A DNA stretch of 64,000 bases, from the IMG/VR virus record IMGVR_UViG_3300045988_154953. The stretch is one strand, 5' to 3'. Within the stretch, counting starts at the first letter, position 1; each line of letters starts with the position of its first letter. The notes under the pieces are model-generated. The model made no database searches and was not told where the DNA came from. It was given only the letters and a program-made list of their open reading frames with translations. This DNA is from a virus. This document shows positions 29,392 to 39,699 of the stretch, in pieces. The position numbers and the translations under genes are program-made.

Positions 29392-30048
29392 ATGATTAAA
29401 CTATTTACTCATAGTGACAGAGATGGACAAGGGTGCGCTGTTTTAGCTAAATTAGCTTTTGAAGACAATGTAGACATTGAATATTGTAACTATGACGATA
29501 TTAATGATAAAGTAAAAGATTTTTGCGCTAATTATTGTAGAGATAGAAACGTTAGAGAAAAATATGAACATGTTTATATTACAGACATTTCTATTACAGA
29601 AGAATTAGCTAGAAAAATAAATAATTTATCTCTATTTGAACATATCACATTATTAGACCATCATCCCACAGCTTTAAAATTGAATAAATTCAGTTGGTGC
29701 AAAGTTTCTGTTGATAATTCAGAAGGATTAAAGACATCTGGTACAGAATTGTTCTACCAGTGTCTACTTTCAACAAACTGCTTTTCTGATAAATTAAAAA
29801 GCAGTGAATACTTGAAAAGATTCGTTGAATTGACAAGGGATTATGATACCTGGAGATGGACAACTCTTGGTGAAAACGGGCTTATTTGTAAACAGTTAAA
29901 TGACCTGATGTACATTTATGGTATGGATAACTTTACTGATTGGTGTATAAAAGGAATATTAAATAAATCATTTCCTAGATTATCATTAGAAGATCAAATT
30001 GTTCTCAGTATTAGACAGCAGGAGATTGAAAATTTATTTAGGAAATAA
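29392..30048 (+). CDS. DHH-domain-only phosphoesterase-like protein
   Basis: HSDRDG, ITDIS and LLDHHPT motifs in DHH order. At 218 aa it lacks a DHHA1 domain. Confidence 0.5.
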   Translation: MIKLFTHSDRDGQGCAVLAKLAFEDNVDIEYCNYDDINDKVKDFCANYCRDRNVREKYEHVYITDISITEELARKINNLSLFEHITLLDHHPTALKLNKFSWCKVSVDNSEGLKTSGTELFYQCLLSTNCFSDKLKSSEYLKRFVELTRDYDTWRWTTLGENGLICKQLNDLMYIYGMDNFTDWCIKGILNKSFPRLSLEDQIVLSIRQQEIENLFRK

Positions 30049-31849: not shown

Positions 31850-32017
31850 TTGAATCCTATTATGTATTTAATAGTTATTGTGGATGCTATTATAGTTTGG
31901 TTTCTATTAACGATTGTGTTTAAACCATTAGGATCAATTATTTCTAAGATATGGGATGACACATCTAAAACATTAAATGAAAAAGAAGAGAAAGAAGAGG
32001 ATAACAAGAATGGCTAA
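31850..32017 (+). CDS. small membrane protein coupled to the SPFH gene (below the track cutoff)
   Basis: Hand translation gives LNPIMYLIVIVDAIIVWFLLTIVFKPLG..EKEEKEEDNKNG. TTG 31850 follows ggtga, or ATG 31862 could be the start. Its stop overlaps the ATG of the next gene (ATGGCTAA). Confidence 0.4.
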   Translation: MNPIMYLIVIVDAIIVWFLLTIVFKPLGSIISKIWDDTSKTLNEKEEKEEDNKNG

Positions 32018-32951
32018 AAGAAAAGGATTAATCGGTGGCGTTGGATTGGCAGTATTAATCATTGGTGGTTTGTTTGTTGGAATTTCCTGTACAGAGAAAA
32101 TTCCGGCGGGTTATGTCGGTGTAGTTTATAACTCACTAAACGGTGGTGTTGATGGAGAGGTTATCACACAGGGATGGCATCTCGTATCACCTACAAAGAA
32201 AGTCACTACATATTCAATCGGTATTGAACAGTCTTATCTCACATCAGAAGAGAAAGGTGATTCGCCAGTTGACGAAAGTTTTTCAACACCAACATCTGAC
32301 GGTAAATCATTAACAGTTGATTTGGAATTTTCATACAAGTTTGATCAGGATAAGATCGCTGATACATTCATAAAATTCAAGGGGCAATCTGGAAACACTG
32401 TTAAAGATACATTTATTAAACCTAAGATGAGAGCTTGGACACAGGAAGTTACAGCAAAATATCCTGTTACTGATGTTTTTGGTGATAAGAGACAGGAATT
32501 AAACGAAGCACTTGATGTGTATCTAAAGCAGAAGTTTGAACCATATGGTATTATTATTGACACTGTGAACTTCACAAATATCTCCACTGATTCAGAAACT
32601 GCAGAAGCAATTCAGAAGAAAGTTACAGCGCAGCAGGAATTAGAACTGGCAACTATTGAAGCTAAAACAGCTAAAGTACAGGCAGATAAAGACAAAGAAG
32701 TAGCTCTTATTGCAGCTGAACAGGAAAAAGAAAAAGCAGCTATTGTTGCAGAGCAGAAGAAAATTCAGGCAGAAGGCGAAGCACAGGCTACAAAGATTAA
32801 AGCTGATGCAGAAGCAGAAGCAAATGTAAAGATTGCTAAATCACTTACACCGGAGCTGATTGAAAAGCAGAAGATCGAAAAATGGAATGGTTCTGTTCCT
32901 ACAGTCCAGGGTAGTTCAACACCTATTGTCAATATGAGTGATGATAAATAG
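32010..32951 (+). CDS. SPFH/band-7 (prohibitin-like) domain protein
   Basis: An N-terminal TM helix, then IPAGYVGVVYN..GWHLVSP and a long Ala/Glu/Lys-rich coiled coil. ATG 32010 is in frame with the track start 31977. Confidence 0.7.
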   Translation: MAKRKGLIGGVGLAVLIIGGLFVGISCTEKIPAGYVGVVYNSLNGGVDGEVITQGWHLVSPTKKVTTYSIGIEQSYLTSEEKGDSPVDESFSTPTSDGKSLTVDLEFSYKFDQDKIADTFIKFKGQSGNTVKDTFIKPKMRAWTQEVTAKYPVTDVFGDKRQELNEALDVYLKQKFEPYGIIIDTVNFTNISTDSETAEAIQKKVTAQQELELATIEAKTAKVQADKDKEVALIAAEQEKEKAAIVAEQKKIQAEGEAQATKIKADAEAEANVKIAKSLTPELIEKQKIEKWNGSVPTVQGSSTPIVNMSDDK

Positions 32952-32968
32952 TTTTAGAAAACGAATTT

Positions 32969-33132
32969 GTTTGGTTATGGATTAAAATTTGATTCATAAC
33001 CAAACGATAAAGTAATCAGTATATTAAGTATTATTACTTGATATCTGCAGGTGATTTTGCACCTGAAAAGTGAGGTTAATAACACTCACTAAAATCTGTG
33101 TAATTAGATTCGAAATGTACATGTGAATTTGA
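32969..33132 (+). ncRNA. tracrRNA-like structured RNA, module A (boundaries approximate)
   Basis: Hairpins at 32969-33005, 33010-33039, 33048-33065 (caggtg/cacctg) and 33069-33090 (agtgag/ctcact). Next come taaaat and the anti-repeat ctgtgtaatt (33096-33105), which is the exact reverse complement of repeat bases aattacacag. A second partial anti-repeat lies at 33117-33130. Confidence 0.5.
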
Positions 33133-33236
33133 GGTTTTAGAGATATATTAAATTACATAGATACAAAACTCATGGACTCTATAAGATAAGTATGGTGTGG
33201 TTTTAGAGATATATTAAATTACACAGGTACATAAAT
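33133..33236 (+). CRISPR. mini CRISPR array A: 2 repeats, 1 spacer
   Basis: R1 33133-33170 ggttttagagatatattaaattacatagatacaaaact. Spacer 33171-33198 catggactctataagataagtatggtgt. R2 33199-33236 is 34/38 identical to R1. Period 66 nt. Confidence 0.55.
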
Positions 33237-33247
33237 AAGTCTATAGA

Positions 33248-33276
33248 TTTACATAATTATAAAATAATTATAAATA
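33248..33276 (+). promoter_or_regulatory. candidate promoter of the nuclease gene
   Basis: TTTACA, a 17-nt spacer, then TAAATA, about 20 nt upstream of ATG 33296. The background is AT-rich, so the call is weak. Confidence 0.3.
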
Positions 33277-33295
33277 TGAAGGATAACAAATAGCA

Positions 33296-35026
33296 ATGAA
33301 TACAATAAAAAATACATATATACGAACATTAAAATTTAATTTAAATTTAACACCAAAATTCGAAACAGAAGAAGATAATAAAAAATATATAAATGATGTG
33401 TATTCATATCTAAGAGATGCTATATGGGCACAAAATAGAGCTATGAATATTGTTCTTGATCGAACTAAAGAAGCTTATACACTTGGACGAGGGATGAACA
33501 GGGTTAAAGAAATATATTATTCATATTCCCATCAAAAACCAATTAGTAATGACAAAAAAGAAAGCTTCTTAGAATCATTGTTGCAGTATGCACCTATAGA
33601 CGATCAATTTGTAAAAAATGAAGTTAAAAAATTACGTAAATTCTATGAATCTAAAAAGAAACCACCAAAAGAAGAAACTGTTTCTAAAAATTGTGAAGCT
33701 TTAAAAAATAAGTACATAAAATATGTTGGTAAATCAAAAGATGATGTCAAACGAGAATTAGATTTACTTGAAAATTATTGTGCATATCCAGAAGATATTT
33801 ATGAAAAATTTGCTAACGGATTAAGCACACCTGCATATATAAAACAGAAAGTAGAATCTTATTGGAAACAGGATGGAATAAAAACAAAAGTTATTTACTC
33901 GATGGATGAAAATCTCAGACGAATAAAAGATGCTCCATTGTTCATACCACCAAATGTTTTTTACAATAAAAAAGATGAATTAATCGGTTTGGTATATGAT
34001 TATACTGACTATATATCTTTTTTAGAAGATTTAGAAAATAAACGAAATGTAAATATATATTTAAGTATTCCATATAAAAAAGGTGAAGATAAATTAAAAT
34101 TCAAATTAGTTCTAGGGAATCCACATAAGTCTCGTGATTCTAGATTATCCATAAAAAGAATTTTTGAAGAAGAATATAGAATTAAAGGCAGCAGTATTGG
34201 ATTTACGAAGAATAAAGAAACTGGCAAAAATACAAATTTAACTTTATATCTTACTGTTGAAGTCCCACAAAATAAAGATAATACTCTTGATGAGAATGTA
34301 GTTGTTGGAGTAGATGTCGGCATCGCTATTCCATGTGTATGTGCTTTAAATAACGATAAATATACAAGAGAAAATATTGGAAGTTATGATACTTTATTTG
34401 CTAAAAGAACCCAGTTTAAAATGCAGAGAAGTAGATTGAATAGTCAATTAAAATTATCAAAGGGTGGACATGGAAGAAAAAGAAAGTTAAAGAAATTAGA
34501 ATTACTTTCAGGAAAAGAGAAAAATTACGTTGATACAGAATGTAGAAAGTATGCAAGTGATGTAATTAAATTTTGTTTAAAACATCATGCTAAATATATT
34601 AATTTAGAGCACCTAAAAGGATATCGAGAGAATCCTAAAGTATTAGCTGGATGGAGTTTTTATAAAATCCAAACATATATTGAACAAGCAGCTGAAAAAC
34701 ATGGAATTATTGTAAGGAAAATTAATCCATGTTATACATCACAGATTTGTAGCGTATGTGGAAATTGGCATCCAGAGAATAGACCAAAGGGTAAATTAGG
34801 GCAAGCATATTTTAATTGTCATAATATTGATTGTAAAACTCATAATACAGATTTGTATAAATATGGTATTAATGCAGACTTTAATGCTGCTAGGAATATA
34901 GCAATGTCAACATTATTTATTACCGATTCTGATGAGATCACAAAGAAACATTGGAAAGAAGCCAGAGAATATTATGGTATAGATGAATCGGATGATAAAG
35001 AAGAAAAATTAAATAAAGTAGCCTAA
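33296..35026 (+). CDS. cas12: compact type V CRISPR effector / TnpB-like RuvC nuclease (Cas12f-like)
   Basis: RuvC-I VVGVDVGIAIP, GGHGRKRKLKKL, RuvC-II YINLEHLKG, WSFYKIQTYIEQAAEKHGI, zinc ribbon CYTSQICSVCG..FNCHNIDCKTH, and RuvC-III INADFNAARNIA. Repeat arrays flank it on both sides. Confidence 0.8.
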   Translation: MNTIKNTYIRTLKFNLNLTPKFETEEDNKKYINDVYSYLRDAIWAQNRAMNIVLDRTKEAYTLGRGMNRVKEIYYSYSHQKPISNDKKESFLESLLQYAPIDDQFVKNEVKKLRKFYESKKKPPKEETVSKNCEALKNKYIKYVGKSKDDVKRELDLLENYCAYPEDIYEKFANGLSTPAYIKQKVESYWKQDGIKTKVIYSMDENLRRIKDAPLFIPPNVFYNKKDELIGLVYDYTDYISFLEDLENKRNVNIYLSIPYKKGEDKLKFKLVLGNPHKSRDSRLSIKRIFEEEYRIKGSSIGFTKNKETGKNTNLTLYLTVEVPQNKDNTLDENVVVGVDVGIAIPCVCALNNDKYTRENIGSYDTLFAKRTQFKMQRSRLNSQLKLSKGGHGRKRKLKKLELLSGKEKNYVDTECRKYASDVIKFCLKHHAKYINLEHLKGYRENPKVLAGWSFYKIQTYIEQAAEKHGIIVRKINPCYTSQICSVCGNWHPENRPKGKLGQAYFNCHNIDCKTHNTDLYKYGINADFNAARNIAMSTLFITDSDEITKKHWKEAREYYGIDESDDKEEKLNKVA

Positions 35027-35038
35027 GTGCTACTAAAC

Positions 35039-35183
35039 CAGTCGAAAGACTGCGGTGTGTTTTGGTGTGTTTATATAGCCTCAAATATAAACACCGCTAT
35101 TGTGGATACAATAGTACGCCGAAAGGTGAGGATTCGTCACTCACTAAAATCCATGTTAAAACTTGTATCTATGGTAATTTGGG
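35039..35183 (+). ncRNA. tracrRNA-like structured RNA, module B (boundaries approximate)
   Basis: Hairpins cagtc-gaaa-gactg (35039-35052), gtgtttatat/atataaacac (35067-35094), ctattgt/acaatag (35097-35114) and gtgag/ctcac (35126-35144). Next come taaaat and the anti-repeat ccatgttaaa (35151-35160), the exact reverse complement of repeat bases tttaacatgg. Confidence 0.55.
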
Positions 35184-35352
35184 GATTAAGAAGTATATCA
35201 TTTAACATGGGTACAAAACTCTATAGAGATACACTGTATATTTAGTTATGATTAAGAAGTATATCATTTAACATGGGTACAAAACTCAGCACTGCATTTA
35301 TTTTTAGGCAGGCACGATTAAGAAGTATATCATTTAACACGAATATAAAAAT
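35184..35352 (+). CRISPR. mini CRISPR array B: 3 repeats, 2 spacers
   Basis: The repeat gattaagaagtatatcatttaacatgggtacaaaact lies at 35184-35220 and 35250-35286 (identical). A third copy at 35316-35352 is degenerate at its 3' end. Spacers: ctatagagatacactgtatatttagttat and cagcactgcatttatttttaggcaggcac. Period 66 nt. Confidence 0.7.
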
Positions 35353-35369
35353 GAAACGGAGACAACTAA

Positions 35370-35918
35370 TTGATTATTATTATTGGTAAAACCGCATCTG
35401 GTAAAGACACAATTGTAAAAGAGTTATGTCTAAATCATAATTTCAAAAAGATTGTTACATATACAACCAGACCAATGCGAGAAAATGAAATTGATGGCAC
35501 TACATACCATTATATATCAAATGAAGAATTTAAGGGAAAAATTAATGAAGGATTTTTTGTAGAATATAAATCCTACCAATCTGAATTCGGTGAATGGTTC
35601 TATGGAACATCTGAAGAGAGCATTCTAAATTCTGATGACAAATCTATTATAATTCTTACACCTCAAGGGTACAAAGATATCTTATCTAAATATCCCAATC
35701 TTAATTATAAATCCATTTATTTATATGCAAGTAATAGAACAATTAGAAAACGTTTAATACAGCGTGGAGACGATGAGGCAGAAGCAAAGCGAAGAGTTAG
35801 ACATGATAAGAAAGATTTTAGAGGTATTTATAAAATAGTAGATAAAGTTATTTGTAATAATCAAAATAAACAATTTGAGAAGGTAATAAAAGAAATATTG
35901 GATGTGATTAAAGAATGA
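35370..35918 (+). CDS. gmk: guanylate kinase-like nucleotide kinase
   Basis: P-loop GKTASGKDT and the signature TTRPMRENEIDGTTYHYIS. TTG start. Confidence 0.75.
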   Translation: MIIIIGKTASGKDTIVKELCLNHNFKKIVTYTTRPMRENEIDGTTYHYISNEEFKGKINEGFFVEYKSYQSEFGEWFYGTSEESILNSDDKSIIILTPQGYKDILSKYPNLNYKSIYLYASNRTIRKRLIQRGDDEAEAKRRVRHDKKDFRGIYKIVDKVICNNQNKQFEKVIKEILDVIKE

Positions 35919-36352
35919 TAAATAAAATGACAAATAGAATAAACGTATATCTTTCTGGAGCAATTAAGAATACAGACTATAAATTCCAAGATTGGAGAGA
36001 ATATTGTTCTGATTCCATTTTAGCTGGTTTTTATCCACATTTAAATATTATTGATCCCAATAAATTTTTCAATTATACCGATAAACAACCAAAAACAGAT
36101 AAACAATGTATGGATTTGTTTATGTATCTATTAAAGAAAAGTGATGTTTTATTGGTTAATTTGGATCAATCGAATAGTAGCGTAGGTACCGGCATGGAAG
36201 TAGAATATGCAATTTGTAATAACATTCCTATTATTGCATTTGGTAATAAACCAGAGACTTGGTATAAGTGGGTTGAGATAAGTGCAGCAGTTATATTAGA
36301 AGATGCAGAGGAAGCATTAGAGTATATTGATAACTCATACGGAGTTATTTAG
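35915..36352 (+). CDS. nucleoside 2-deoxyribosyltransferase-like protein
   Basis: VYLSGAI..DWR and GTGMEVEYA motifs resemble the NDT/Rcl fold. It sits in the nucleotide-metabolism context. Confidence 0.4.
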   Translation: MINKMTNRINVYLSGAIKNTDYKFQDWREYCSDSILAGFYPHLNIIDPNKFFNYTDKQPKTDKQCMDLFMYLLKKSDVLLVNLDQSNSSVGTGMEVEYAICNNIPIIAFGNKPETWYKWVEISAAVILEDAEEALEYIDNSYGVI

Positions 36353-36400
36353 TATAAATGAAACATGATGATTATAAATAAATTAAGAAAGGATGATTAA

Positions 36401-37276
36401 ATGAAAGTAGTCAAGAGAGATTGTACGCTGGTAGATTTTGATAAAAATAAAATTTACACAGCGATAATGAAAGCGATGAAGGATGGATCAGGAATTGTGA
36501 AGCCGAAGGTAGCAGAAGACATCTCAAATGAGATATATGAAATGCACAAAAATGACGATGAAATCGACATTTCAACCATCGAATCAGAGGTCTTCGATAA
36601 ATTGATTACAAAAAAACAAAGACTTACTGCCAGAGCTTATGAAGGATATAGAAGTAAACGAGAGCTGCAACGAGAATATAACACTATAGATGATGAAATA
36701 ATCGGCCTTGTCGAAGATAAAAATGAATATTGGAAAGATGAAAATGCAAACAAAAATCCAATATTAAATCCAACGAAAAGAGATTATATTGCCGGTTCAG
36801 TAAGTACAGATGCAACAAAAAGATATTTATTATCACCAGAAATAGTACAAGCTCATATGGATGGTATTATTCACTTTCATGATGCAGATTATTTTATTCA
36901 ACATATGCATAATTGTGATCTAGTTAATCTTGAAGATATGTTACAAAATAACACTGTAATTAGTGGAGTATTAATTGAAAAACCACATTCTTTTTCTACT
37001 GCTTGTAATATAGCTACACAAGCCATTTCACAAATAGCAAGTAATCAATATGGGGGTCAAAGTGTTTCTTTGGCACATCTCGCTCCTTTCGTAGATATTT
37101 CAAGACAAAAAATAAGAGAAGAATTAGTAGAAGAATTTTCTTTATTGGGTTTCTCTAAGGGTGGAATTATAGACGAAGATTTTAATGCAGTTGTAGAAAA
37201 ACGTTTAAAGAAAGAAATTGAAAAAGGTGTTCAGACTATTCAATATCAATTAGTTACACTTATGACAACAAACGGT
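36401..37276 (+). CDS. nrdD: anaerobic ribonucleoside-triphosphate reductase, exon 1
   Basis: ATP-cone N-terminus (VVKRDCTLVDFDKNKI) and class III RNR body. The reading frame continues as ..LMTTNG | QAPFITIF.. when joined to 38332. Confidence 0.8.
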
Positions 37277-38331
37277 TAATTTTGGCTGTTGTAAAATCTT
37301 GTGAACCATGCCAATGGGTGTCTAATAAATTAGGCTAACGGTCAACTAACCTCAAGGGTAAGGTGGTAAGAGAACCTAAGTCCTGTAATAAGGATATGGT
37401 AATACCGTGTTAAGCGTTTTGTTTATAAAAATAAAAAAAGAAAGGGGGGGAATGAAAAATGTATGGATATATATATTTAACTACAAATCTAATCAACGAT
37501 CGAAAATATATAGGAAAACATAAAAGTGAATTTTATGACGATAAATATTATGGGAGTGGAAAGATTCTTTTGCAGGCTATATCAAAATATGGTATTGAAA
37601 ATTTTACGAATGAAATATTATACGAAGCGGATTACGCAGAAGAATTAAATAAAAAAGAAAAAGAATATATTTCATTATATAGAGGAAAATATGGAAAACA
37701 AATGTATAATATAGCGTCTGGAGGAGACGGGGGAGATACATACTCATCTAAATCTGAAGAAGAAAAAGAAGATTTTGTTAAGAAAATGGAGAAAATAAAT
37801 AGAGACAGATGTTCTTCGAAAGAATTTAAGATACAAGCTTCTGAACGTTTAACTAAAAAATATTCCAACATTGAAGAAAGAAAATTACAATCCGAAAGAA
37901 TTAAAAAAGCTTGGGATAATGAGCAATTAAAGGAAGATCAGAGCGAGCGATTAAAAAATTATTATAAAACACATAAAAAAGAAAATTCATATAATAACAT
38001 TCCATGTGGGATTAAATTTAATGGGGTAAAATATGAATTTGAAAGTGTTAAGCAATTAAAAAAATTCATAAAAGAAGAGTTTAATTTTGTCCCAGGAAAT
38101 TCAAAGATAAAACAGATGATGATTGATGGGACTAATGGTATTCCATATGTTTCTTTCTTTAAAAAATACAGTAATTTGAATGGCGCGTTACTTTATTATA
38201 AACAAAACGAAAATGTAGAGACTATGGGTGATGAATGTAGCCCAGTAGAGCATGAGATAGGCACATGCTCCAAGTGCAAGACTGAAATAGAAGAGATAGT
38301 CCGCTCTGCATAGAAATATGCAGATGGGGTG
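37277..38331 (+). mobile_element. group I intron interrupting nrdD
   Basis: The 5' exon ends in U (37276), which pairs as U-G in a P1 helix aacggu/gcuguu (37271-37276 with 37085-type guide at 37285-37290). The intron ends in G (38331). It has a GC-rich structured 5' core (37300-37420) and a conserved-looking aagagatagtcc near the 3' end. It contains a homing endonuclease ORF. Confidence 0.75.
37459..38313 (+). CDS. GIY-YIG homing endonuclease (intron-encoded)
   Basis: N-terminal GYIYLTTNLINDRKYIGKH..YYGSG is a GIY-YIG motif. It lies inside the nrdD intron. Confidence 0.8.
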   Translation: MYGYIYLTTNLINDRKYIGKHKSEFYDDKYYGSGKILLQAISKYGIENFTNEILYEADYAEELNKKEKEYISLYRGKYGKQMYNIASGGDGGDTYSSKSEEEKEDFVKKMEKINRDRCSSKEFKIQASERLTKKYSNIEERKLQSERIKKAWDNEQLKEDQSERLKNYYKTHKKENSYNNIPCGIKFNGVKYEFESVKQLKKFIKEEFNFVPGNSKIKQMMIDGTNGIPYVSFFKKYSNLNGALLYYKQNENVETMGDECSPVEHEIGTCSKCKTEIEEIVRSA

Positions 38332-39699
38332 CAAGCCCCTTTTATTACAATTTTCATGTATCTTAATGAAGCCAAAAACGAACAAGAAAAACACGATTTA
38401 GCTTTATTAATCGAAGAAATGCTTCATCAAAGAATCAAAGGAGTAAAAAATAAAGAAGGAGTTTATGTAGCACCTGCATTTCCTAAACTAATTTATGTTT
38501 TGGAAGAAGATAATATTCATGAAGATTCAAAATATTGGTATTTGACAAAATTAGCTGCGGAGTGTTCTTCTAAACGTTTAGTTCCAGATTATATTTCAGA
38601 AAAAATTATGCTTGAAACAAAAGGTGATGTATACACCTGTATGGGATGTAGATCATTTTTAACAGTAGATAGATTTTCTGATAAAGTTTCTAACATTGCC
38701 AATGCGAAAAATTACGAACCTGACAAACACAAATATTACGGACGCTTCAATCAAGGTGTAGTTACACTTTCACTACCAGATATTGCTTTATCTTCAGAAG
38801 GTGATTTCGATACATTTTGGAAAATTTTTGAAGAAAGAACTGAATTGTGTCATAAAGCACTTAGAATCAGACATGAAAGATTGCGCGGTACATTATCTGA
38901 TGTTGCTCCTATATTGTGGCAAGATGGTGCTCTTGCTCGATTAAAAGAACATGAAAAAATCGATAAACTTCTTTATGATGGTTATTCAACTATATCTTTG
39001 GGATATGCCGGTTTATATGAATGTGTAAAATATATGACTGGACATTCTCATTCTGATGAAGGTATTGGCGAAGAGTTTGGATTAAAAGTTATGCAAGCTC
39101 TTAATGATAAGTGTGCTCAGTGGAAAAATGCTGAAAATATAGATTATAGTTTGTATGGTACGCCTCTCGAAAGTACAACGTATAAATTTGCAAAATGCTT
39201 AAAGGCTCGTTTTGGTAAAGATGTATTTATTAGATTGGATGGATTTGATAGAAATTATATAACTAATTCATATCATATTCCAGTGTTTGAGCCAATTACA
39301 GCGTTTGAAAAACTTAGAATAGAAGCAAAATTCCAATTATTAAGTCCTGGTGGAGCCATTTCTTATGTAGAAGTACCAAGCATGTCTCATAATATTAATG
39401 CTTTGATCGAAGTTATCAAATTCATTTACTATCACATTCAGTATGCAGAAATTAATACTAAAAGTTGCTACTGTGAAAAATGTGGCTATGATGGAGATAT
39501 TCCTCTTGTACTAGATGAAAATGGTAAATATAGATGGGAGTGTCCACAATGTGGCAATATAGATAATACTACCATGGATATTGCTTTTAGAGTCTGTGGT
39601 TACATTGGTACTGCAAAAAATGGTGGTAATCAAGGACGATATGGTGATGTACATGATCGTGTATATCACTTAGATGATATAGAATATAATGAGAAATAG
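38332..39699 (+). CDS. nrdD: anaerobic ribonucleoside-triphosphate reductase, exon 2
   Basis: Continues the class III RNR. A C-terminal zinc site CYCEKCG..CPQCG is followed by a glycyl-radical-type RVCGY motif. Confidence 0.8.
   Translation, partial: QAPFITIFMYLNEAKNEQEKHDLALLIEEMLHQRIKGVKNKEGVYVAPAFPKLIYVLEEDNIHEDSKYWYLTKLAAECSSKRLVPDYISEKIMLETKGDVYTCMGCRSFLTVDRFSDKVSNIANAKNYEPDKHKYYGRFNQGVVTLSLPDIALSSEGDFDTFWKIFEERTELCHKALRIRHERLRGTLSDVAPILWQDGALARLKEHEKIDKLLYDGYSTISLGYAGLYECVKYMTGHSHSDEGIGEEFGLKVMQALNDKCAQWKNAENIDYSLYGTPLESTTYKFAKCLKARFGKDVFIRLDGFDRNYITNSYHIPVFEPITAFEKLRIEAKFQLLSPGGAISYVEVPSMSHNINALIEVIKFIYYHIQYAEINTKSCYCEKCGYDGDIPLVLDENGKYRWECPQCGNIDNTTMDIAFRVCGYIGTAKNGGNQGRYGDVHDRVYHLDDIEYNEK

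What the first reader, a model, noticed from the sequence alone, without database searches (positions are those of the whole stretch)
35027..35369. Downstream guide module B starts immediately after the nuclease stop codon
The 157 nt between the stop (35026) and the first repeat (35184) are markedly more GC-rich than the surroundings. They form at least four hairpins, including a GAAA tetraloop hairpin at 35039-35052. Then come the same conserved block gaaaggtgagg..cactcactaaaat and the anti-repeat ccatgttaaa (35151-35160). Three repeats follow (two identical, the third degenerate in its last ~14 nt) with two 29-nt spacers. No obvious promoter lies between gene and RNA, so it may be co-transcribed or start inside the ORF 3' end, as TnpB omega-RNAs do. 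The track ORF 35027..35245 is almost certainly an artefact of this RNA region.
Basis: partly seen in the sequence, partly recalled or inferred. Interest (0 to 1): 0.7.

Follow-up and report, generated by a model that had tools for sequence, protein, structure and literature searches.

The report
Phage Cas12f tracrRNA plus mini-CRISPR array
The stretch just after the nuclease gene encodes a scaffold RNA (tracrRNA) and a three-repeat CRISPR array that arm a miniature Cas12f-type nuclease carried by a large gut phage; this is a known kind of system, but here each nuclease gene has two or more separate, mutually mismatched scaffold-plus-array cassettes.

Summary
Window 35027-35351 carries a structured, relatively GC-rich 157-nt leader followed by three 36-nt repeats and two 30-nt spacers.

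The leader is a Cas12f-type tracrRNA:
- stem 1, a GAAA hairpin (35039-35052);
- stem P1 (35053-58 / 35116-21), enclosing a single-stranded GUUUUG and two inserted hairpins;
- the conserved stem GUGAGG..CACUCAC (35126-35144);
- UAAAAU, then the anti-repeat CCAUGUUAAA (35151-35160).

GUUUUG pairs with the repeat's 3' end CAAAAC as a pseudoknot. The anti-repeat pairs with UUUAACAUGG in the repeat. Both pairings, and the hairpins, show compensatory changes across dozens of related phage loci.

A covariance model trained only on upstream-type modules finds module B at E = 2e-8, with no other new hit in the window.

The adjacent 576-aa protein is closest in sequence and predicted fold to CnCas12f1 and Al3Cas12f. 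The RNA layout matches published Al3Cas12f/MG119 guide RNAs.

Spacer 2 has a 30/30 protospacer with a TTTTA 5' flank in human-gut contigs. ORF 35027-35245 is an artefact.

What may be new: this phage clade usually carries 2-5 tracrRNA-array cassettes per effector, and each tracrRNA matches only its own repeats.

The parts
33296..35026 (+). cas12f-like effector gene (576 aa). RuvC residues D340, E438 and D528 and the CxxC..CxxxxC zinc-finger cysteines are conserved.
   Evidence: Pfam Cas12f1-like_TNB 1.9e-13; NCBIfam guided_TnpB 2e-36. Best PDB sequence hit is CnCas12f1 8hr5 at 3e-47. AF2 model pLDDT is 83.6; Foldseek top hits are 8hr5 (8.6e-25) and Al3Cas12f. Invariant catalytic columns.
35017..35034 (+). 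Hairpin AGUAGC-CUAAGU-GCUACU with the cas12f stop codon in its loop. It may be a 5' extension of tracrRNA B or a processing site.
   Evidence: It resembles the extra 5' hairpin of the 152-nt Al3Cas12f guide RNA. Its function is inferred.
35039..35052 (+). tracrRNA B stem 1: CAGUC-GAAA-GACUG
   Evidence: An equivalent hairpin with a different sequence sits directly 5' of P1 in most modules and in Al3Cas12f sgRNA (CCCC-UUCG-GGGG).
35053..35121 (+). tracrRNA B three-way junction. P1 is 35053-58 (CGGUGU) with 35116-21 (ACGCCG). The single-stranded pseudoknot strand GUUUUG is at 35059-64. Hairpin a is 35065-95 and hairpin b is 35096-115.
   Evidence: MFE fold. RNAalifold on 17 module-B-type tracrRNAs gives 11 of 24 pairs with compensatory changes. 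The covariance model places a 52-nt insertion in the P1 loop.
35126..35144 (+). tracrRNA B conserved stem P2: GUGAGG-AUUCGU-CACUCAC, with an A bulge
   Evidence: Two matches in the window against 0.00 expected. In related loci the motif occurs on the + strand only: 68 loci against 0 on the - strand. The distal pair covaries (pair 27-32).
35145..35160 (+). Linker UAAAAU and anti-repeat CCAUGUUAAA (35151-35160). The anti-repeat pairs with UUUAACAUGG of each repeat.
   Evidence: Cognate duplex is -14.4 kcal/mol. 7 of 11 pairs covary. The closest relative L008 has CUAUGUUAAA paired with UUUAACAUAG.
35161..35183 (+). Spacer region between the anti-repeat and the first repeat. It ends in AATTTGGGG, a variant of the ATTTGAGG motif conserved before the first repeat in most modules.
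   Evidence: Function unknown.
35184..35219 (+). Repeat B1 (36 nt): GATTAAGAAGTATATCATTTAACATGGGTACAAAAC. The 3' CAAAAC pairs with the tracrRNA GUUUUG as a pseudoknot.
   Evidence: The pseudoknot helix is 100% paired and 3 of 5 pairs are compensatory.
35220..35249 (+). Spacer B1: TCTATAGAGATACACTGTATATTTAGTTAT
   Evidence: No target found in IMG/VR, INPHARED or PLSDB.
35250..35285 (+). Repeat B2, identical to B1
35286..35315 (+). Spacer B2: TCAGCACTGCATTTATTTTTAGGCAGGCAC
   Evidence: 30/30 match in human-gut contig L170, and 29/30 in L171 (a 101-kb contig) and L172. The flanks are not repeats. The 5' flank is ATTTTA.
35316..35351 (+). Repeat B3, the terminal repeat. It is degenerate in its 3' third, so the anti-repeat and pseudoknot partners are lost.
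33017..33105 (+). tracrRNA A of the upstream sister module. Stem 1 is 33017-47. P1 is CAGGUG (33048-53) with CACCUG (33060-65), and its loop AUUUUG is the pseudoknot strand. P2 is 33070-89. The anti-repeat CUGUGUAAUU is at 33096-105.
   Evidence: z = -7.7. Covariance model hit 33030-33107, 82.5 bits.
33134..33235 (+). Array A: repeat 33134-69, spacer 33170-99, degenerate repeat 33200-35

Best explanation
Window about 35017/35035 to 35351 (+ strand) is a self-contained guide cassette for the adjacent phage-encoded Cas12f-type nuclease. It consists of a roughly 130-145-nt tracrRNA followed, on the same strand, by a three-repeat, two-spacer CRISPR mini-array.

Shown by sequence and comparative analysis:
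- The tracrRNA folds into stem 1, stem P1 enclosing an unpaired GUUUUG plus two inserted hairpins, and the conserved stem P2.
- Its anti-repeat forms about 11 bp with the middle of each repeat.
- Its GUUUUG forms a 5-6-bp pseudoknot with the repeat's 3' end.
- Module B and the upstream module A each match their own repeats and pair only weakly with the other's.

Inferred from the Cas12f family:
- The pre-crRNA is cut to repeat-3'-part plus spacer.
- A Cas12f dimer binds one tracrRNA:crRNA pair.
- The complex cuts double-stranded DNA that matches the spacer next to a 5' T-rich PAM.

Inferred from the targets: the phage uses this against competing mobile elements in its gut Firmicutes host.

Unresolved: transcription may read through from cas12f or start in the last codons of the ORF.
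For: Effector identity:
- Pfam, NCBIfam and PDB sequence hits point to Cas12f.
- The AF2 model's best Foldseek matches are CnCas12f1, Al3Cas12f, AsCas12f, SpCas12f1 and Un1Cas12f.
- The RuvC D/E/D residues and the zinc-finger cysteines are invariant in 16 homologues.

RNA structure:
- The fold scores z = -3.5.
- RNAalifold on 17 module-B-type sequences predicts P1, hairpins a and b, and P2, with 11 of 24 pairs compensatory.
- In the pair count over 26 modules, 96.3% of cells pair against 81.0 +/- 1.0 in shuffles (0/500). Cells changed on both sides number 109 against 33.5 +/- 4.8 (0/500). Slid controls pair at 31-52%. The pseudoknot helix is 100% paired with 3 of 5 pairs compensatory, and the anti-repeat:repeat helix has 7 of 11 compensatory.
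- Cognate anti-repeat:repeat duplexes average -13.4 kcal/mol against -7.5 for non-cognate pairs, with 0 of 20000 permutations as low.

Independent detection:
- A covariance model built without module B finds it at 35035-35162, 44.9 bits, E = 2.4e-8. The training member (module A) is the only other hit in the 64 kb.
- The same model gives 193 hits in 92 related loci, all on the effector strand.

Match to known guide RNAs:
- The order of elements is the same as in published Al3Cas12f and MG119-3 sgRNAs. Those even share GGUGU..ACGCC and UGAGG..CACUCA.
- In SpCas12f1 and AsCas12f1 the tracrRNA also lies between the gene and the array (PMC8548392).

Use:
- Spacer B2 has a 30/30 protospacer with a TTTTA flank.
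- A family spacer hits Lachnospiraceae phages 29/29 with a TTTTT flank.
- Spacers differ between the window and L008, although the cassette DNA is 93% identical.
Against: - There is no expression data, so the RNA ends, the processing and the promoter are unknown. The promoter scan was uninformative.
- Only one of the window's three spacers has a detectable target. That target is an unannotated small ORF on a contig of unknown nature.
- The PAM rests on two protospacers.
- Dimerisation and cleavage were not tested.
- In the pair-count alignment, I located the P1 and pseudoknot strands of the long-type modules by eye. Only the short-type modules have fixed, unbiased positions.
- Two families with a one-base shift in register were left out of that alignment.
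Confidence: 0.86

Rival explanations
1. Natural single-guide RNA acting in cis. The tracrRNA and the first repeat-spacer unit stay on one transcript. The anti-repeat folds back onto repeat 1, which lies only 23 nt downstream, so spacer 1 is used without trans pairing or RNase III. Later repeats use free tracrRNA. This refines the best explanation rather than excluding it.
For: - The minimum-free-energy fold of 35027-35221 pairs the anti-repeat with repeat 1 in cis.
- In related loci (L077, L068, L063) the anti-repeat is followed directly by a truncated repeat 3' part plus a 30-nt spacer. These are fused, single-guide-like forms.
Against: - The window keeps a full 36-nt first repeat, as ordinary arrays do.
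- Characterised Cas12f systems yield separate tracrRNA and 40-50-nt crRNAs (PMC8548392).
- There is no RNA data here.
Confidence: 0.25
2. Decaying or purely regulatory remnant. Module B would be a duplicated, no-longer-used copy of module A, or its hairpins would serve only as a 3' UTR or terminator for cas12f.
For: - The array is tiny and its last repeat is degenerate.
- The stem 1 hairpin, followed by a U-rich tract, was flagged as terminator-like.
- Two of the three window spacers have no detectable target.
Against: - Every helix is maintained by compensatory changes across loci whose effectors are down to about 40% identical.
- The anti-repeat co-changed with its repeat even in the 98%-identical relative.
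- Spacer B2 has a perfect protospacer.
- Spacer content has turned over between close relatives.
Confidence: 0.06
3. TnpB transposon with an omega-RNA. The nuclease would be a transposon-borne TnpB, and the downstream structured RNA its omega-RNA, with the guide set by the transposon end rather than by a CRISPR array.
For: - NCBIfam guided_TnpB scores 2e-36.
- The RNA abuts or overlaps the ORF 3' end.
- The cassette 33029-35219 sits in a different gene context in the 98%-identical relative.
Against: - True repeat-spacer arrays with variable 30-nt spacers are present on both sides.
- The scaffold pairs with the repeats through a separate anti-repeat.
- The best sequence and fold matches are CRISPR-associated Cas12f proteins, ahead of TnpB.
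- No TnpA gene is among the neighbours tested.
Confidence: 0.03
4. ORF 35027-35245 encodes a real 72-aa protein.
For: It is an open frame with a GTG start directly after the nuclease stop codon.
Against: - It has no family match.
- It runs through a tracrRNA, a repeat and a variable spacer.
- In L008 a 1-nt indel shifts the frame and introduces stop codons.
Confidence: 0.01

Closest known systems
Type V-F1 CRISPR-Cas12f systems of the CnCas12f1 / Al3Cas12f (MG119) clade, with their tracrRNA:crRNA guides (PDB 8HR5, 9NZO/9NZR; PMC13186708)
   Same: - The effector is closest in sequence (3e-47 and 5e-42 over the C-terminal half) and in predicted fold (8.6e-25, 28% identity over 549 columns).
- The RNA has the same order of elements: stem 1 hairpin, P1 hairpin whose loop pairs with the repeat 3' end, short A-rich linker, UGAGG..CACUCA stem, AAAAU-type linker, anti-repeat.
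- The repeat tail has the same layout: anti-repeat complement, then 4 nt, then pseudoknot complement (UCAAGUGA-AUAU-CCAAC against UUUAACAUGG-GUAC-AAAAC).
- The tracrRNA lies between cas12f and the array.
- Both use or appear to use a T-rich PAM; here that is suggested by only two protospacers.
   Different: - The protein is longer (576 aa against 433-508 aa), and its N-terminal 250 residues have no sequence-level PDB match.
- The extra hairpins sit in the P1 loop rather than in the P2 loop.
- The system is carried by a large phage, with no cas1, cas2 or cas4 among the neighbouring ORFs tested.
- The arrays have only 1-3 spacers.
- Each effector has two or more tracrRNA-array cassettes with mutually mismatched anti-repeats.
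Phage-encoded CRISPR-Cas systems of huge phages, including V-F subtypes (Al-Shayeb et al. 2020, PMC7162821)
   Same: - Phage-borne, with no spacer-acquisition genes.
- Compact arrays.
- Catalytic residues intact.
- Spacers target other mobile elements or phages.
   Different: That paper mentions V-F subtypes only briefly. The passages I searched in it do not describe tracrRNAs or several cassettes per effector. The contigs here are about 50-210 kb gut phages rather than the >200-kb clades defined there.
Cas12p / 'Cas12 hacker' (type V-P), a phage-encoded miniature Cas12 with tracrRNA and TrxA cofactor (bioRxiv 10.1101/2025.01.20.633832; PDB 9JFS)
   Same: - Phage origin and a size of 500-700 aa.
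- tracrRNA plus crRNA.
- A pseudoknot between the tracrRNA and an AAAC repeat end.
   Different: - The fold match is weak: Foldseek 4.9e-10, 12% identity, rank 28, against rank 1-21 for Cas12f entries. There is no sequence-level hit.
- Cas12p works as a monomer with TrxA and uses a GTN PAM.
- The protospacer flanks here are T-rich.
TnpB omega-RNA and TranC systems (transposon-to-CRISPR intermediates; LaTranC PDB 9JFQ; the 'RNA splitting' model is recalled from my own knowledge of Jin et al., Cell 2025, which is not held in the library)
   Same: - The scaffold RNA lies directly 3' of, and perhaps overlaps, the nuclease ORF.
- The core has a pseudoknot plus stems.
- Some related loci carry fused scaffold-repeat-guide forms next to split forms.
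   Different: - Real repeat-spacer arrays are present, and there is a discrete anti-repeat.
- No transposon ends or TnpA gene were found.
- Fold similarity to TnpB and TranC is much lower than to Cas12f.

Membership tests
Type V-F (Cas12f) CRISPR-Cas | Miniature (400-700 aa) effector with a TnpB-like RuvC domain split by a zinc-finger (TNB) insert and an intact D-E-D catalytic triad | tested here: met
   576 aa. Pfam Cas12f1-like_TNB 1.9e-13. D340, E438, D528 and the zinc-finger cysteines are invariant in 16 homologues.
Type V-F (Cas12f) CRISPR-Cas | Closest characterised relatives are Cas12f proteins rather than other Cas12 subtypes or TnpB | tested here: met
   Sequence search of PDB: CnCas12f1 3e-47 and Al3Cas12f 5e-42, ahead of all others. 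Foldseek ranks 1-21 are all Cas12f entries. Cas12m, TnpB, Cas12e, Cas12p and Cas12k score 1e-10 or worse.
Type V-F (Cas12f) CRISPR-Cas | Long tracrRNA encoded between cas12f and the array, with an anti-repeat complementary to the repeat | tested here: met
   Anti-repeat 35151-60 pairs with repeat positions 18-27. The cognate duplex is -14.4 kcal/mol. 7 of 11 pairs covary across 26 modules. The position matches SpCas12f1 and AsCas12f1. Expression was not tested.
Type V-F (Cas12f) CRISPR-Cas | Pseudoknot between a 5' tracrRNA segment and the 3' end of the repeat | tested here: met
   GUUUUG (35059-64) pairs with CAAAAC (35214-19). Across modules the pairs are UUUUG:CAAAA, UUUCG:CGAAA, UUUGG:CCAAA, UUCAG:CUGAA and GUUUGA:UCAAAC. 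The helix is 100% paired and 3 of 5 pairs are compensatory.
Type V-F (Cas12f) CRISPR-Cas | Guide RNA architecture homologous to structurally solved Cas12f guide RNAs | tested here: met
   The order of elements and the motifs match by eye with Al3Cas12f and MG119-3 sgRNAs (GGUGU..ACGCC, UGAGG..CACUCA, A-rich linkers). The automatic MAFFT alignment is reliable only for the 5' part.
Type V-F (Cas12f) CRISPR-Cas | Adjacent CRISPR array with variable spacers | tested here: met
   Three repeats and two spacers downstream; two repeats and one spacer upstream. Spacers differ from those of the 98%-identical relative.
Type V-F (Cas12f) CRISPR-Cas | 5' T-rich or C-rich PAM and RNA-guided double-stranded DNA cleavage | tested here: inconclusive
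   Two protospacers have 5' flanks TTTTA and TTTTT. Cleavage cannot be tested here.
Type V-F (Cas12f) CRISPR-Cas | Asymmetric homodimer on one guide RNA | not testable with these tools
   Only a monomer model was predicted.
Type V-F (Cas12f) CRISPR-Cas | Adaptation genes cas1/cas2/cas4 in the locus (present in some V-F1 loci, so not strictly defining) | tested here: not met
   The neighbours are SPFH, guanylate kinase, nucleoside deoxyribosyltransferase, NrdD, a DHH phosphoesterase and unknowns. Their absence is usual for phage-borne systems (PMC7162821).
Cas12p / Cas12 hacker (type V-P) | Effector homologous to Cas12p, with a thioredoxin-binding insertion and a Cas12k-like PI domain | tested here: not met
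   9JFS scores only 4.9e-10 at 12% identity. There is no sequence-level hit at E <= 1.
TnpB / omega-RNA (IS200/IS605) | A single scaffold-plus-guide RNA ending at the transposon end, with no CRISPR repeats, often with TnpA | tested here: not met
   Repeat-spacer arrays and a separate anti-repeat are present. No TnpA gene is among the neighbours. Transposon ends were not searched for specifically.
Any Rfam family | Match to a curated RNA model | tested here: not met
   No credible hit in 32000-36500, even at E <= 10.

The most novel reading that the evidence does not exclude
A phage-borne clade of Cas12f may supply its guides from several self-contained cassettes, each a tracrRNA plus a 1-3-spacer array. 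There are usually 2-3 and up to 5 per effector, placed on both sides of the gene. The cassettes are kept mutually mismatched by compensatory changes in the anti-repeat:repeat duplex and, in some phages, also in the pseudoknot. Fused single-guide-like forms coexist with split forms in the same clade.

If this arrangement is functional and selected, three readings follow:
- One nuclease naturally works with several non-interchangeable tracrRNA:crRNA pairs.
- The cassettes could be units that phages lacking Cas1-Cas2 exchange or replace.
- The fused forms could be present-day intermediates between omega-RNA-like single guides and split tracrRNA/crRNA.
Probability: 0.35. Interest if true: 0.7.

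Novelty: new variant of a known kind. Interest (0 to 1): 0.55.

Why it matters
For this finding alone, the result is a clean annotation. A stretch that gene callers read as a 72-aa ORF is in fact a tracrRNA plus a mini-array that arm a phage Cas12f.

Three wider points follow.

1. Detection. A 2025 survey of 741,692 phage genomes reported only one phage Cas12, a Cas12a (PMC12676247). One family search here returned 185 relatives on viral contigs. Of the 80 loci kept, 79 gave tracrRNA hits.

2. Design rules. The family is a natural experiment in guide-RNA design for a compact, probably mesophilic, T-rich-PAM nuclease. It offers dozens of covarying scaffold variants: short ones of about 75 nt, long ones of about 130 nt, and fused single-guide forms. 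That variation shows which parts of the scaffold can change.

3. An open question. Several mismatched tracrRNA-array cassettes around one effector is an arrangement I could not find described in the library. It raises a testable question about how phages without adaptation genes renew their spacers.

Tried and rejected
- Rfam scan of 32000-36500 at E <= 10 gave only noise.
- blastn of the cassette against INPHARED phages found no match.
- The sigma-70 promoter and terminator scan found no more hits than shuffles do. It cannot decide how the RNA is transcribed.
- Cas12p ('hacker') membership was considered because that family is phage-borne, of similar size, and has an AAAC:UUUG pseudoknot. It was rejected on fold and sequence.
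- The TnpB/omega-RNA reading was rejected because arrays and an anti-repeat are present.
- The translated-ORF reading was rejected because of the frameshift in L008.
- Spacer searches:
  - None of the 155 family spacers hits the window outside its own arrays.
  - Spacers A1 and B1 have no exact 22-nt match in IMG/VR.
  - The window and L008 spacers have no match in PLSDB.
  - Only one family spacer matches INPHARED phages.
- The nature of the spacer B2 target was not resolved. Only the neighbouring resolvase gene matches phage or plasmid records. PHROGs and Pfam give nothing for the targeted ORF. The 10-kb target piece shares no protein-level similarity with the window.
- The automatic MAFFT alignment of module B with published Al3Cas12f and MG119-3 tracrRNAs is unreliable past the P1 region, because the insertions sit in different loops. 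The correspondence was made by eye.
- My automatic search for the P1 5' strand in long-type modules picked wrong registers, so those were set by hand.
- Al-Shayeb et al. 2022 (Cell) is not held. I therefore could not check whether multi-tracrRNA V-F loci are described there.
Full report
**1. What is in the sequence**

The 576-aa ORF 33296-35026 ends with TAA at 35024-35026. Downstream lie 157 nt of non-repeat sequence, then three direct repeats starting at 35184, 35250 and 35316 with a 66-nt period (TRF score 191).

Comparison with related arrays places the repeat at 36 nt, GATTAAGAAGTATATCATTTAACATGGGTACAAAAC. The spacers are therefore 30 nt, at 35220-35249 and 35286-35315. The third repeat diverges from about position 24.

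The 157 nt have 39.5% GC, against 27.6% in the ORF and 28% in the array. That puts them in the top 6% of 157-nt windows of this 31%-GC window. The only corrections concern spacer length and the strength of the GC contrast.

**2. The neighbouring protein**

- Pfam finds the Cas12f1-like TNB domain, and NCBIfam finds guided_TnpB and Cas12f2.
- The best solved-structure sequence hits are CnCas12f1 (8hr5, 3e-47) and Al3Cas12f (9nzo/9nzr, 5e-42). They cover residues about 250-549.
- An AlphaFold2 model (pLDDT 83.6) matches Cas12f entries at Foldseek ranks 1-21. CnCas12f1 scores 8.6e-25 with 28% identity over 549 columns.
- Cas12m, TnpB, Cas12e and Cas12p (9jfs, 4.9e-10, 12% identity) follow far behind.
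- D340, E438, D528 and the zinc-finger cysteines are invariant in an alignment of 16 homologues.

The effector is therefore a Cas12f-clade nuclease with an intact active site. It is not the phage 'Cas12 hacker' (Cas12p) described in bioRxiv 10.1101/2025.01.20.633832.

**3. The RNA fold**

The 157 nt fold into the following elements:
- stem 1 (35039-52, GAAA loop);
- stem P1 (35053-58 with 35116-21), closing a three-way junction that holds an unpaired GUUUUG (35059-64) and two hairpins (35065-95 and 35096-115);
- a short linker;
- stem P2, GUGAGG-AUUCGU-CACUCAC (35126-44), with a bulged A;
- UAAAAU, then the anti-repeat CCAUGUUAAA (35151-60).

When the first repeat is added, the anti-repeat pairs with UUUAACAUGG of the repeat. 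The fold is then better than all 200 shuffles (z = -3.5).

The upstream module A (33017-33235) has the same plan without the two inserted hairpins. Its elements are P1 CAGGUG-AUUUUG-CACCUG, P2 GUGAGGUUAAUAACACUCAC and the anti-repeat CUGUGUAAUU, which faces the repeat sequence AAUUACA(U/C)AG.

The P2 motif occurs only at these two places in the 64 kb, against 0.00 expected.

**4. Related loci**

The protein has hundreds of unnamed metagenomic relatives. The closest lie on contigs of 50-230 kb.

I fetched loci for the 98%, 74% and 53% relatives. I also fetched 80 viral-contig loci and 80 cellular-genome loci found with a profile. The relatives with the highest identity (47-53%, matched over nearly the whole protein) are on viral contigs. 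The best cellular hits reach 40-46% over partial matches, in Anaerotignum, Lachnospiraceae, Erysipelotrichaceae and Pseudobutyrivibrio.

The P2 motif occurs in 68 loci on the effector strand and in none on the opposite strand.

Inspection of the flanks shows the same plan everywhere: stem 1, P1 with a loop, a linker, P2, an A-rich linker, the anti-repeat, about 20-60 nt, then the array.

The loop or junction strand is always complementary to the repeat's 3' end, and it changes together with it:
- UUUUG:CAAAA in most modules;
- UUUCG:CGAAA in L016 and L039;
- UUUGG:CCAAA in L048, downstream module;
- UUCAG:CUGAA in L048 (upstream module) and the L068 family;
- CCUUU:AAAGG in the L068 downstream family;
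- GUUUGA:UCAAAC in L092;
- UUUUA:UAAAA in L005, downstream module.

This is the tracrRNA-repeat pseudoknot known from Cas12f and TnpB guide RNAs.

**5. Formal tests**

*RNAalifold.* On 17 module-B-type tracrRNAs it predicts P1, hairpin a, hairpin b and P2. Compensatory changes occur in 11 of 24 pairs.

*Pair counts.* I built an ungapped 95-column alignment of 26 distinct modules from pieces cut at fixed anchors: the P1 strands, the pseudoknot strand, the two P2 halves, 20 nt after P2, and the first repeat. Repeats were located by array periodicity and repeat-to-repeat homology only. On this alignment:
- 96.3% of cells pair, against 81.0 +/- 1.0 in shuffles (0/500).
- 109 cells have changes on both sides, against 33.5 +/- 4.8 (0/500).
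- Slid controls pair at 31-52%.
- The pseudoknot helix is 100% paired, with 3 of 5 pairs compensatory.
- The anti-repeat:repeat helix is 92% paired, with 7 of 11 compensatory.

There are two caveats. For long-type modules I set the P1 5' strand and the pseudoknot strand by hand. Two families with a one-base register shift were left out. The short-type modules, which supply most of the pseudoknot covariation, have fixed positions.

*Duplex energies.* Cognate anti-repeat:repeat pairs average -13.4 kcal/mol and non-cognate pairs -7.5 over 34 classes. None of 20000 permutations reaches the observed mean.

*Covariance model.* I built it from 21 short-type tracrRNAs only, so module B was not in the training set. 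It finds two hits in the whole window at E <= 10. One is the training member at 33030-33107. The other is module B at 35035-35162 (44.9 bits, E = 2.4e-8), aligned end to end with a 52-nt insertion in the P1 loop.

**6. Comparison with known guide RNAs**

Supplementary Data 1 of PMC13186708 lists active guide RNAs.

- Al3Cas12f sgRNA1 reads CAAA-CCCCUUCGGGG-GA-GGGCGC-GUUGGA-GCGCCU-UAG-UUUGAGG[..]CACUCAAA-AAAU-UCACUUGA, then a GAAA linker, then UCAAGUGA-AUAU-CCAAC.
- MG119-3 has GGGUGU-GUUGGA-ACGCC-UUAG-UUUGAGG..CACUCAAA.
- Module B reads AAAC-CAGUCGAAAGACUG-CGGUGU-GUUUUG[two hairpins]ACGCCG-AAAG-GUGAGG[..]CACUCAC-UAAAAU-CCAUGUUAAA. Its repeat tail is UUUAACAUGG-GUAC-AAAAC.

The order of elements is the same, the P1 and P2 motifs are shared, and the repeat tail has the same layout. 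The differences are where the extra hairpins are inserted (P1 loop here, P2 loop there) and the scaffold length.

In SpCas12f1 and AsCas12f1 the tracrRNA also lies between the gene and the array, and the crRNAs are 40-50 nt (PMC8548392). Module B is thus the canonical Cas12f arrangement.

A further hairpin at 35017-35034 has the stop codon in its loop. It resembles the extra 5' hairpin of the 152-nt Al3Cas12f guide RNA. In one group of related loci (L051-L058, L081) the stop codon lies about 6 nt before P1. The RNA therefore either starts within the last codons of the ORF or is cut from a read-through transcript. This is inference only.

**7. Evidence of use**

The window and L008, whose effectors are 98% identical, share 93%-identical DNA only from 33029 to 35219. 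That span runs from tracrRNA A to the end of the first repeat of array B. The spacers and the flanking genes differ.

A gene 70% identical between the two phages lies on opposite sides of the cassette.

In L008 the anti-repeat is CUAUGUUAAA and the repeat UUUAACAUAG. This is a compensatory pair of changes at very short evolutionary distance.

Spacer B2 matches a human-gut contig 30/30 (L170). It matches two others 29/30 (L171, 101 kb, and L172), with the mismatch at position 24. The flanks are not repeats, and the 5' flank is ATTTTA. The target lies in an unannotated small ORF next to a DUF6809 gene and a serine recombinase. Whether that contig is a phage, a plasmid or a chromosome could not be decided.

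A spacer of a 46%-identical relative (L048) matches six Lachnospiraceae, Agathobacter, Coprococcus and Dorea phages 29/29, with a 5' flank TTTTT.

Both cases fit a 5' T-rich PAM and targeting of other mobile elements in gut Firmicutes. Two protospacers do not define a PAM.

**8. Context**

The window is part of a large phage genome. It encodes a DnaB-like helicase, a RecJ-like exonuclease, a DNA polymerase, an exonuclease V/Dda-like helicase, NAMPT, anaerobic ribonucleotide reductase and a tail fibre protein. No cas1, cas2 or cas4 is among the neighbours tested. This is usual for phage CRISPR systems (PMC7162821).

**9. The unusual feature**

Module B is one of two cassettes, and the two do not cross-match. 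The predicted duplex energies are:

| tracrRNA | repeat A | repeat B |
|---|---|---|
| A | -13.4 | -7.3 |
| B | -4.1 | -14.4 |

(kcal/mol)

The same holds in all seven loci where two modules could be compared. Cognate pairs average -13.4 and cross pairs -5.6 kcal/mol. In L068 and L069 the pseudoknot pairing also differs between the two modules.

The covariance model gives 193 hits in 92 loci, all on the effector strand. By my tally, about 60 of the 80 viral loci have two or more tracrRNA copies within 1.5 kb of the matched part of the gene. Three is typical and five the maximum (L014, L047). The three cellular loci with hits have one each.

A cruder detector, which needs at least two repeats, finds arrays on both sides of the gene in 38 of 89 loci.

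Many of these loci are near-duplicates from one IMG/VR data set, so the counts overstate the number of independent observations.

Some modules are fused. In L077, L068 and L063 the anti-repeat runs straight into a truncated repeat 3' part plus a 30-nt spacer.

I found no description of natural multi-tracrRNA Cas12f loci in the library. The most relevant paper, Al-Shayeb et al. 2022 in Cell, is not held.

Why the cassettes diverge is not known. Possible reasons, all inference:
- neutral compensatory drift after duplication;
- selection against recombination between direct repeats that would delete the gene;
- exchange of whole cassettes between phages.

**10. The ORF**

ORF 35027-35245 has no family hit. 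It runs through the tracrRNA, a repeat and part of a spacer. In L008 a 1-nt insertion in the loop of hairpin a breaks the frame. It is an artefact.

**11. Verdict**

The element is a Cas12f-type tracrRNA plus mini-array, a known kind of element whose closest characterised relatives are CnCas12f1 and Al3Cas12f. I rate it a new variant of a known kind rather than a plain new member, for four reasons:
- the effector subfamily is phage-borne and distant, at 28% identity to the nearest characterised protein;
- the scaffold has its own insertion pattern;
- each effector is served by several mutually mismatched tracrRNA-array cassettes;
- fused single-guide-like forms occur alongside the split forms.

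Interest is moderate, at 0.55.

Noticed in passing
window 36401-39699: The anaerobic ribonucleotide reductase gene nrdD is split. The N-terminal part is 36401-37279 (ATP-cone plus NRDD) and the C-terminal part is 38329-39699. Between them lies a 284-aa ORF (37459-38313) that matches homing endonucleases (phrog_314, 1.7e-31). This probably reflects an intron or a free-standing homing endonuclease insertion.
   Followed up: partly
L077 2627-2700; L068 2630-2700; L063 2441-2480: In some related loci the tracrRNA anti-repeat is followed directly by a truncated repeat 3' part and a 30-nt spacer. An example is GATATAGTAAATTACA|TATATCTAAAGG|spacer|full repeat. These look like natural single-guide RNAs sitting in front of an ordinary array.
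   Followed up: partly
L029 1113-1142 and L017 1158-1187 (also L019, L021, L022): Two related phages carry spacers that are reverse complements of each other over 27 nt. The same target region was therefore sampled on opposite strands with a 3-4-nt offset. This looks like independent acquisition rather than inheritance, even though no adaptation genes were seen.
   Followed up: no
window 33029-35219 versus L008 2754-4931: The 93%-identical DNA shared with the closest relative stops exactly at the edges of the cassette. A DHH phosphoesterase-like gene (window 29392-30048), 70% identical in L008, lies upstream of the cassette in the window and downstream of it in L008. The cassette therefore sits in a rearranging region, or moves.
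   Followed up: partly
window 33125-33133 and 35175-35183; most related modules: A conserved ATTTGAGG-like motif (aatttgagg and aatttgggg in the window) lies immediately 5' of the first repeat of nearly every array. It is absent before later repeats. Its function is unknown; it could be a processing site, the tracrRNA 3' end, or a leader element.
   Followed up: no
L051, L052, L055, L057, L058, L081, around locus positions 2385-2400 or 2530-2545: In this subgroup the effector stop codon lies only about 6 nt before the first tracrRNA stem. A TAAATAT or TAAAATAT box, which resembles a -10 promoter element, precedes P1 in both downstream modules. This suggests a promoter embedded in the end of the ORF.
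   Followed up: no
window 32967-33006: A near-perfect 18-bp inverted repeat lies right after the SPFH/Band 7 gene (31977-32951). It is outside the DNA shared with L008. It is probably the terminator of that gene rather than part of tracrRNA A.
   Followed up: no
L014 and L047 (five covariance-model hits each); L017-L037 (three each): Some phages carry up to five tracrRNA copies around one effector, including two tandem upstream modules. The second of these has a variant P2 stem (CGUGAGCGCAAUGCGACUCA).
   Followed up: partly
L171 8583-9764 (contig carrying the spacer B2 target) and window 31977-32951: Both the phage and the contig targeted by its spacer carry an SPFH/Band 7 gene within a few kb of the relevant site. 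In L171 that gene is fused to a double zinc ribbon. No sequence similarity was detected between the two regions, so this may be coincidence.
   Followed up: no
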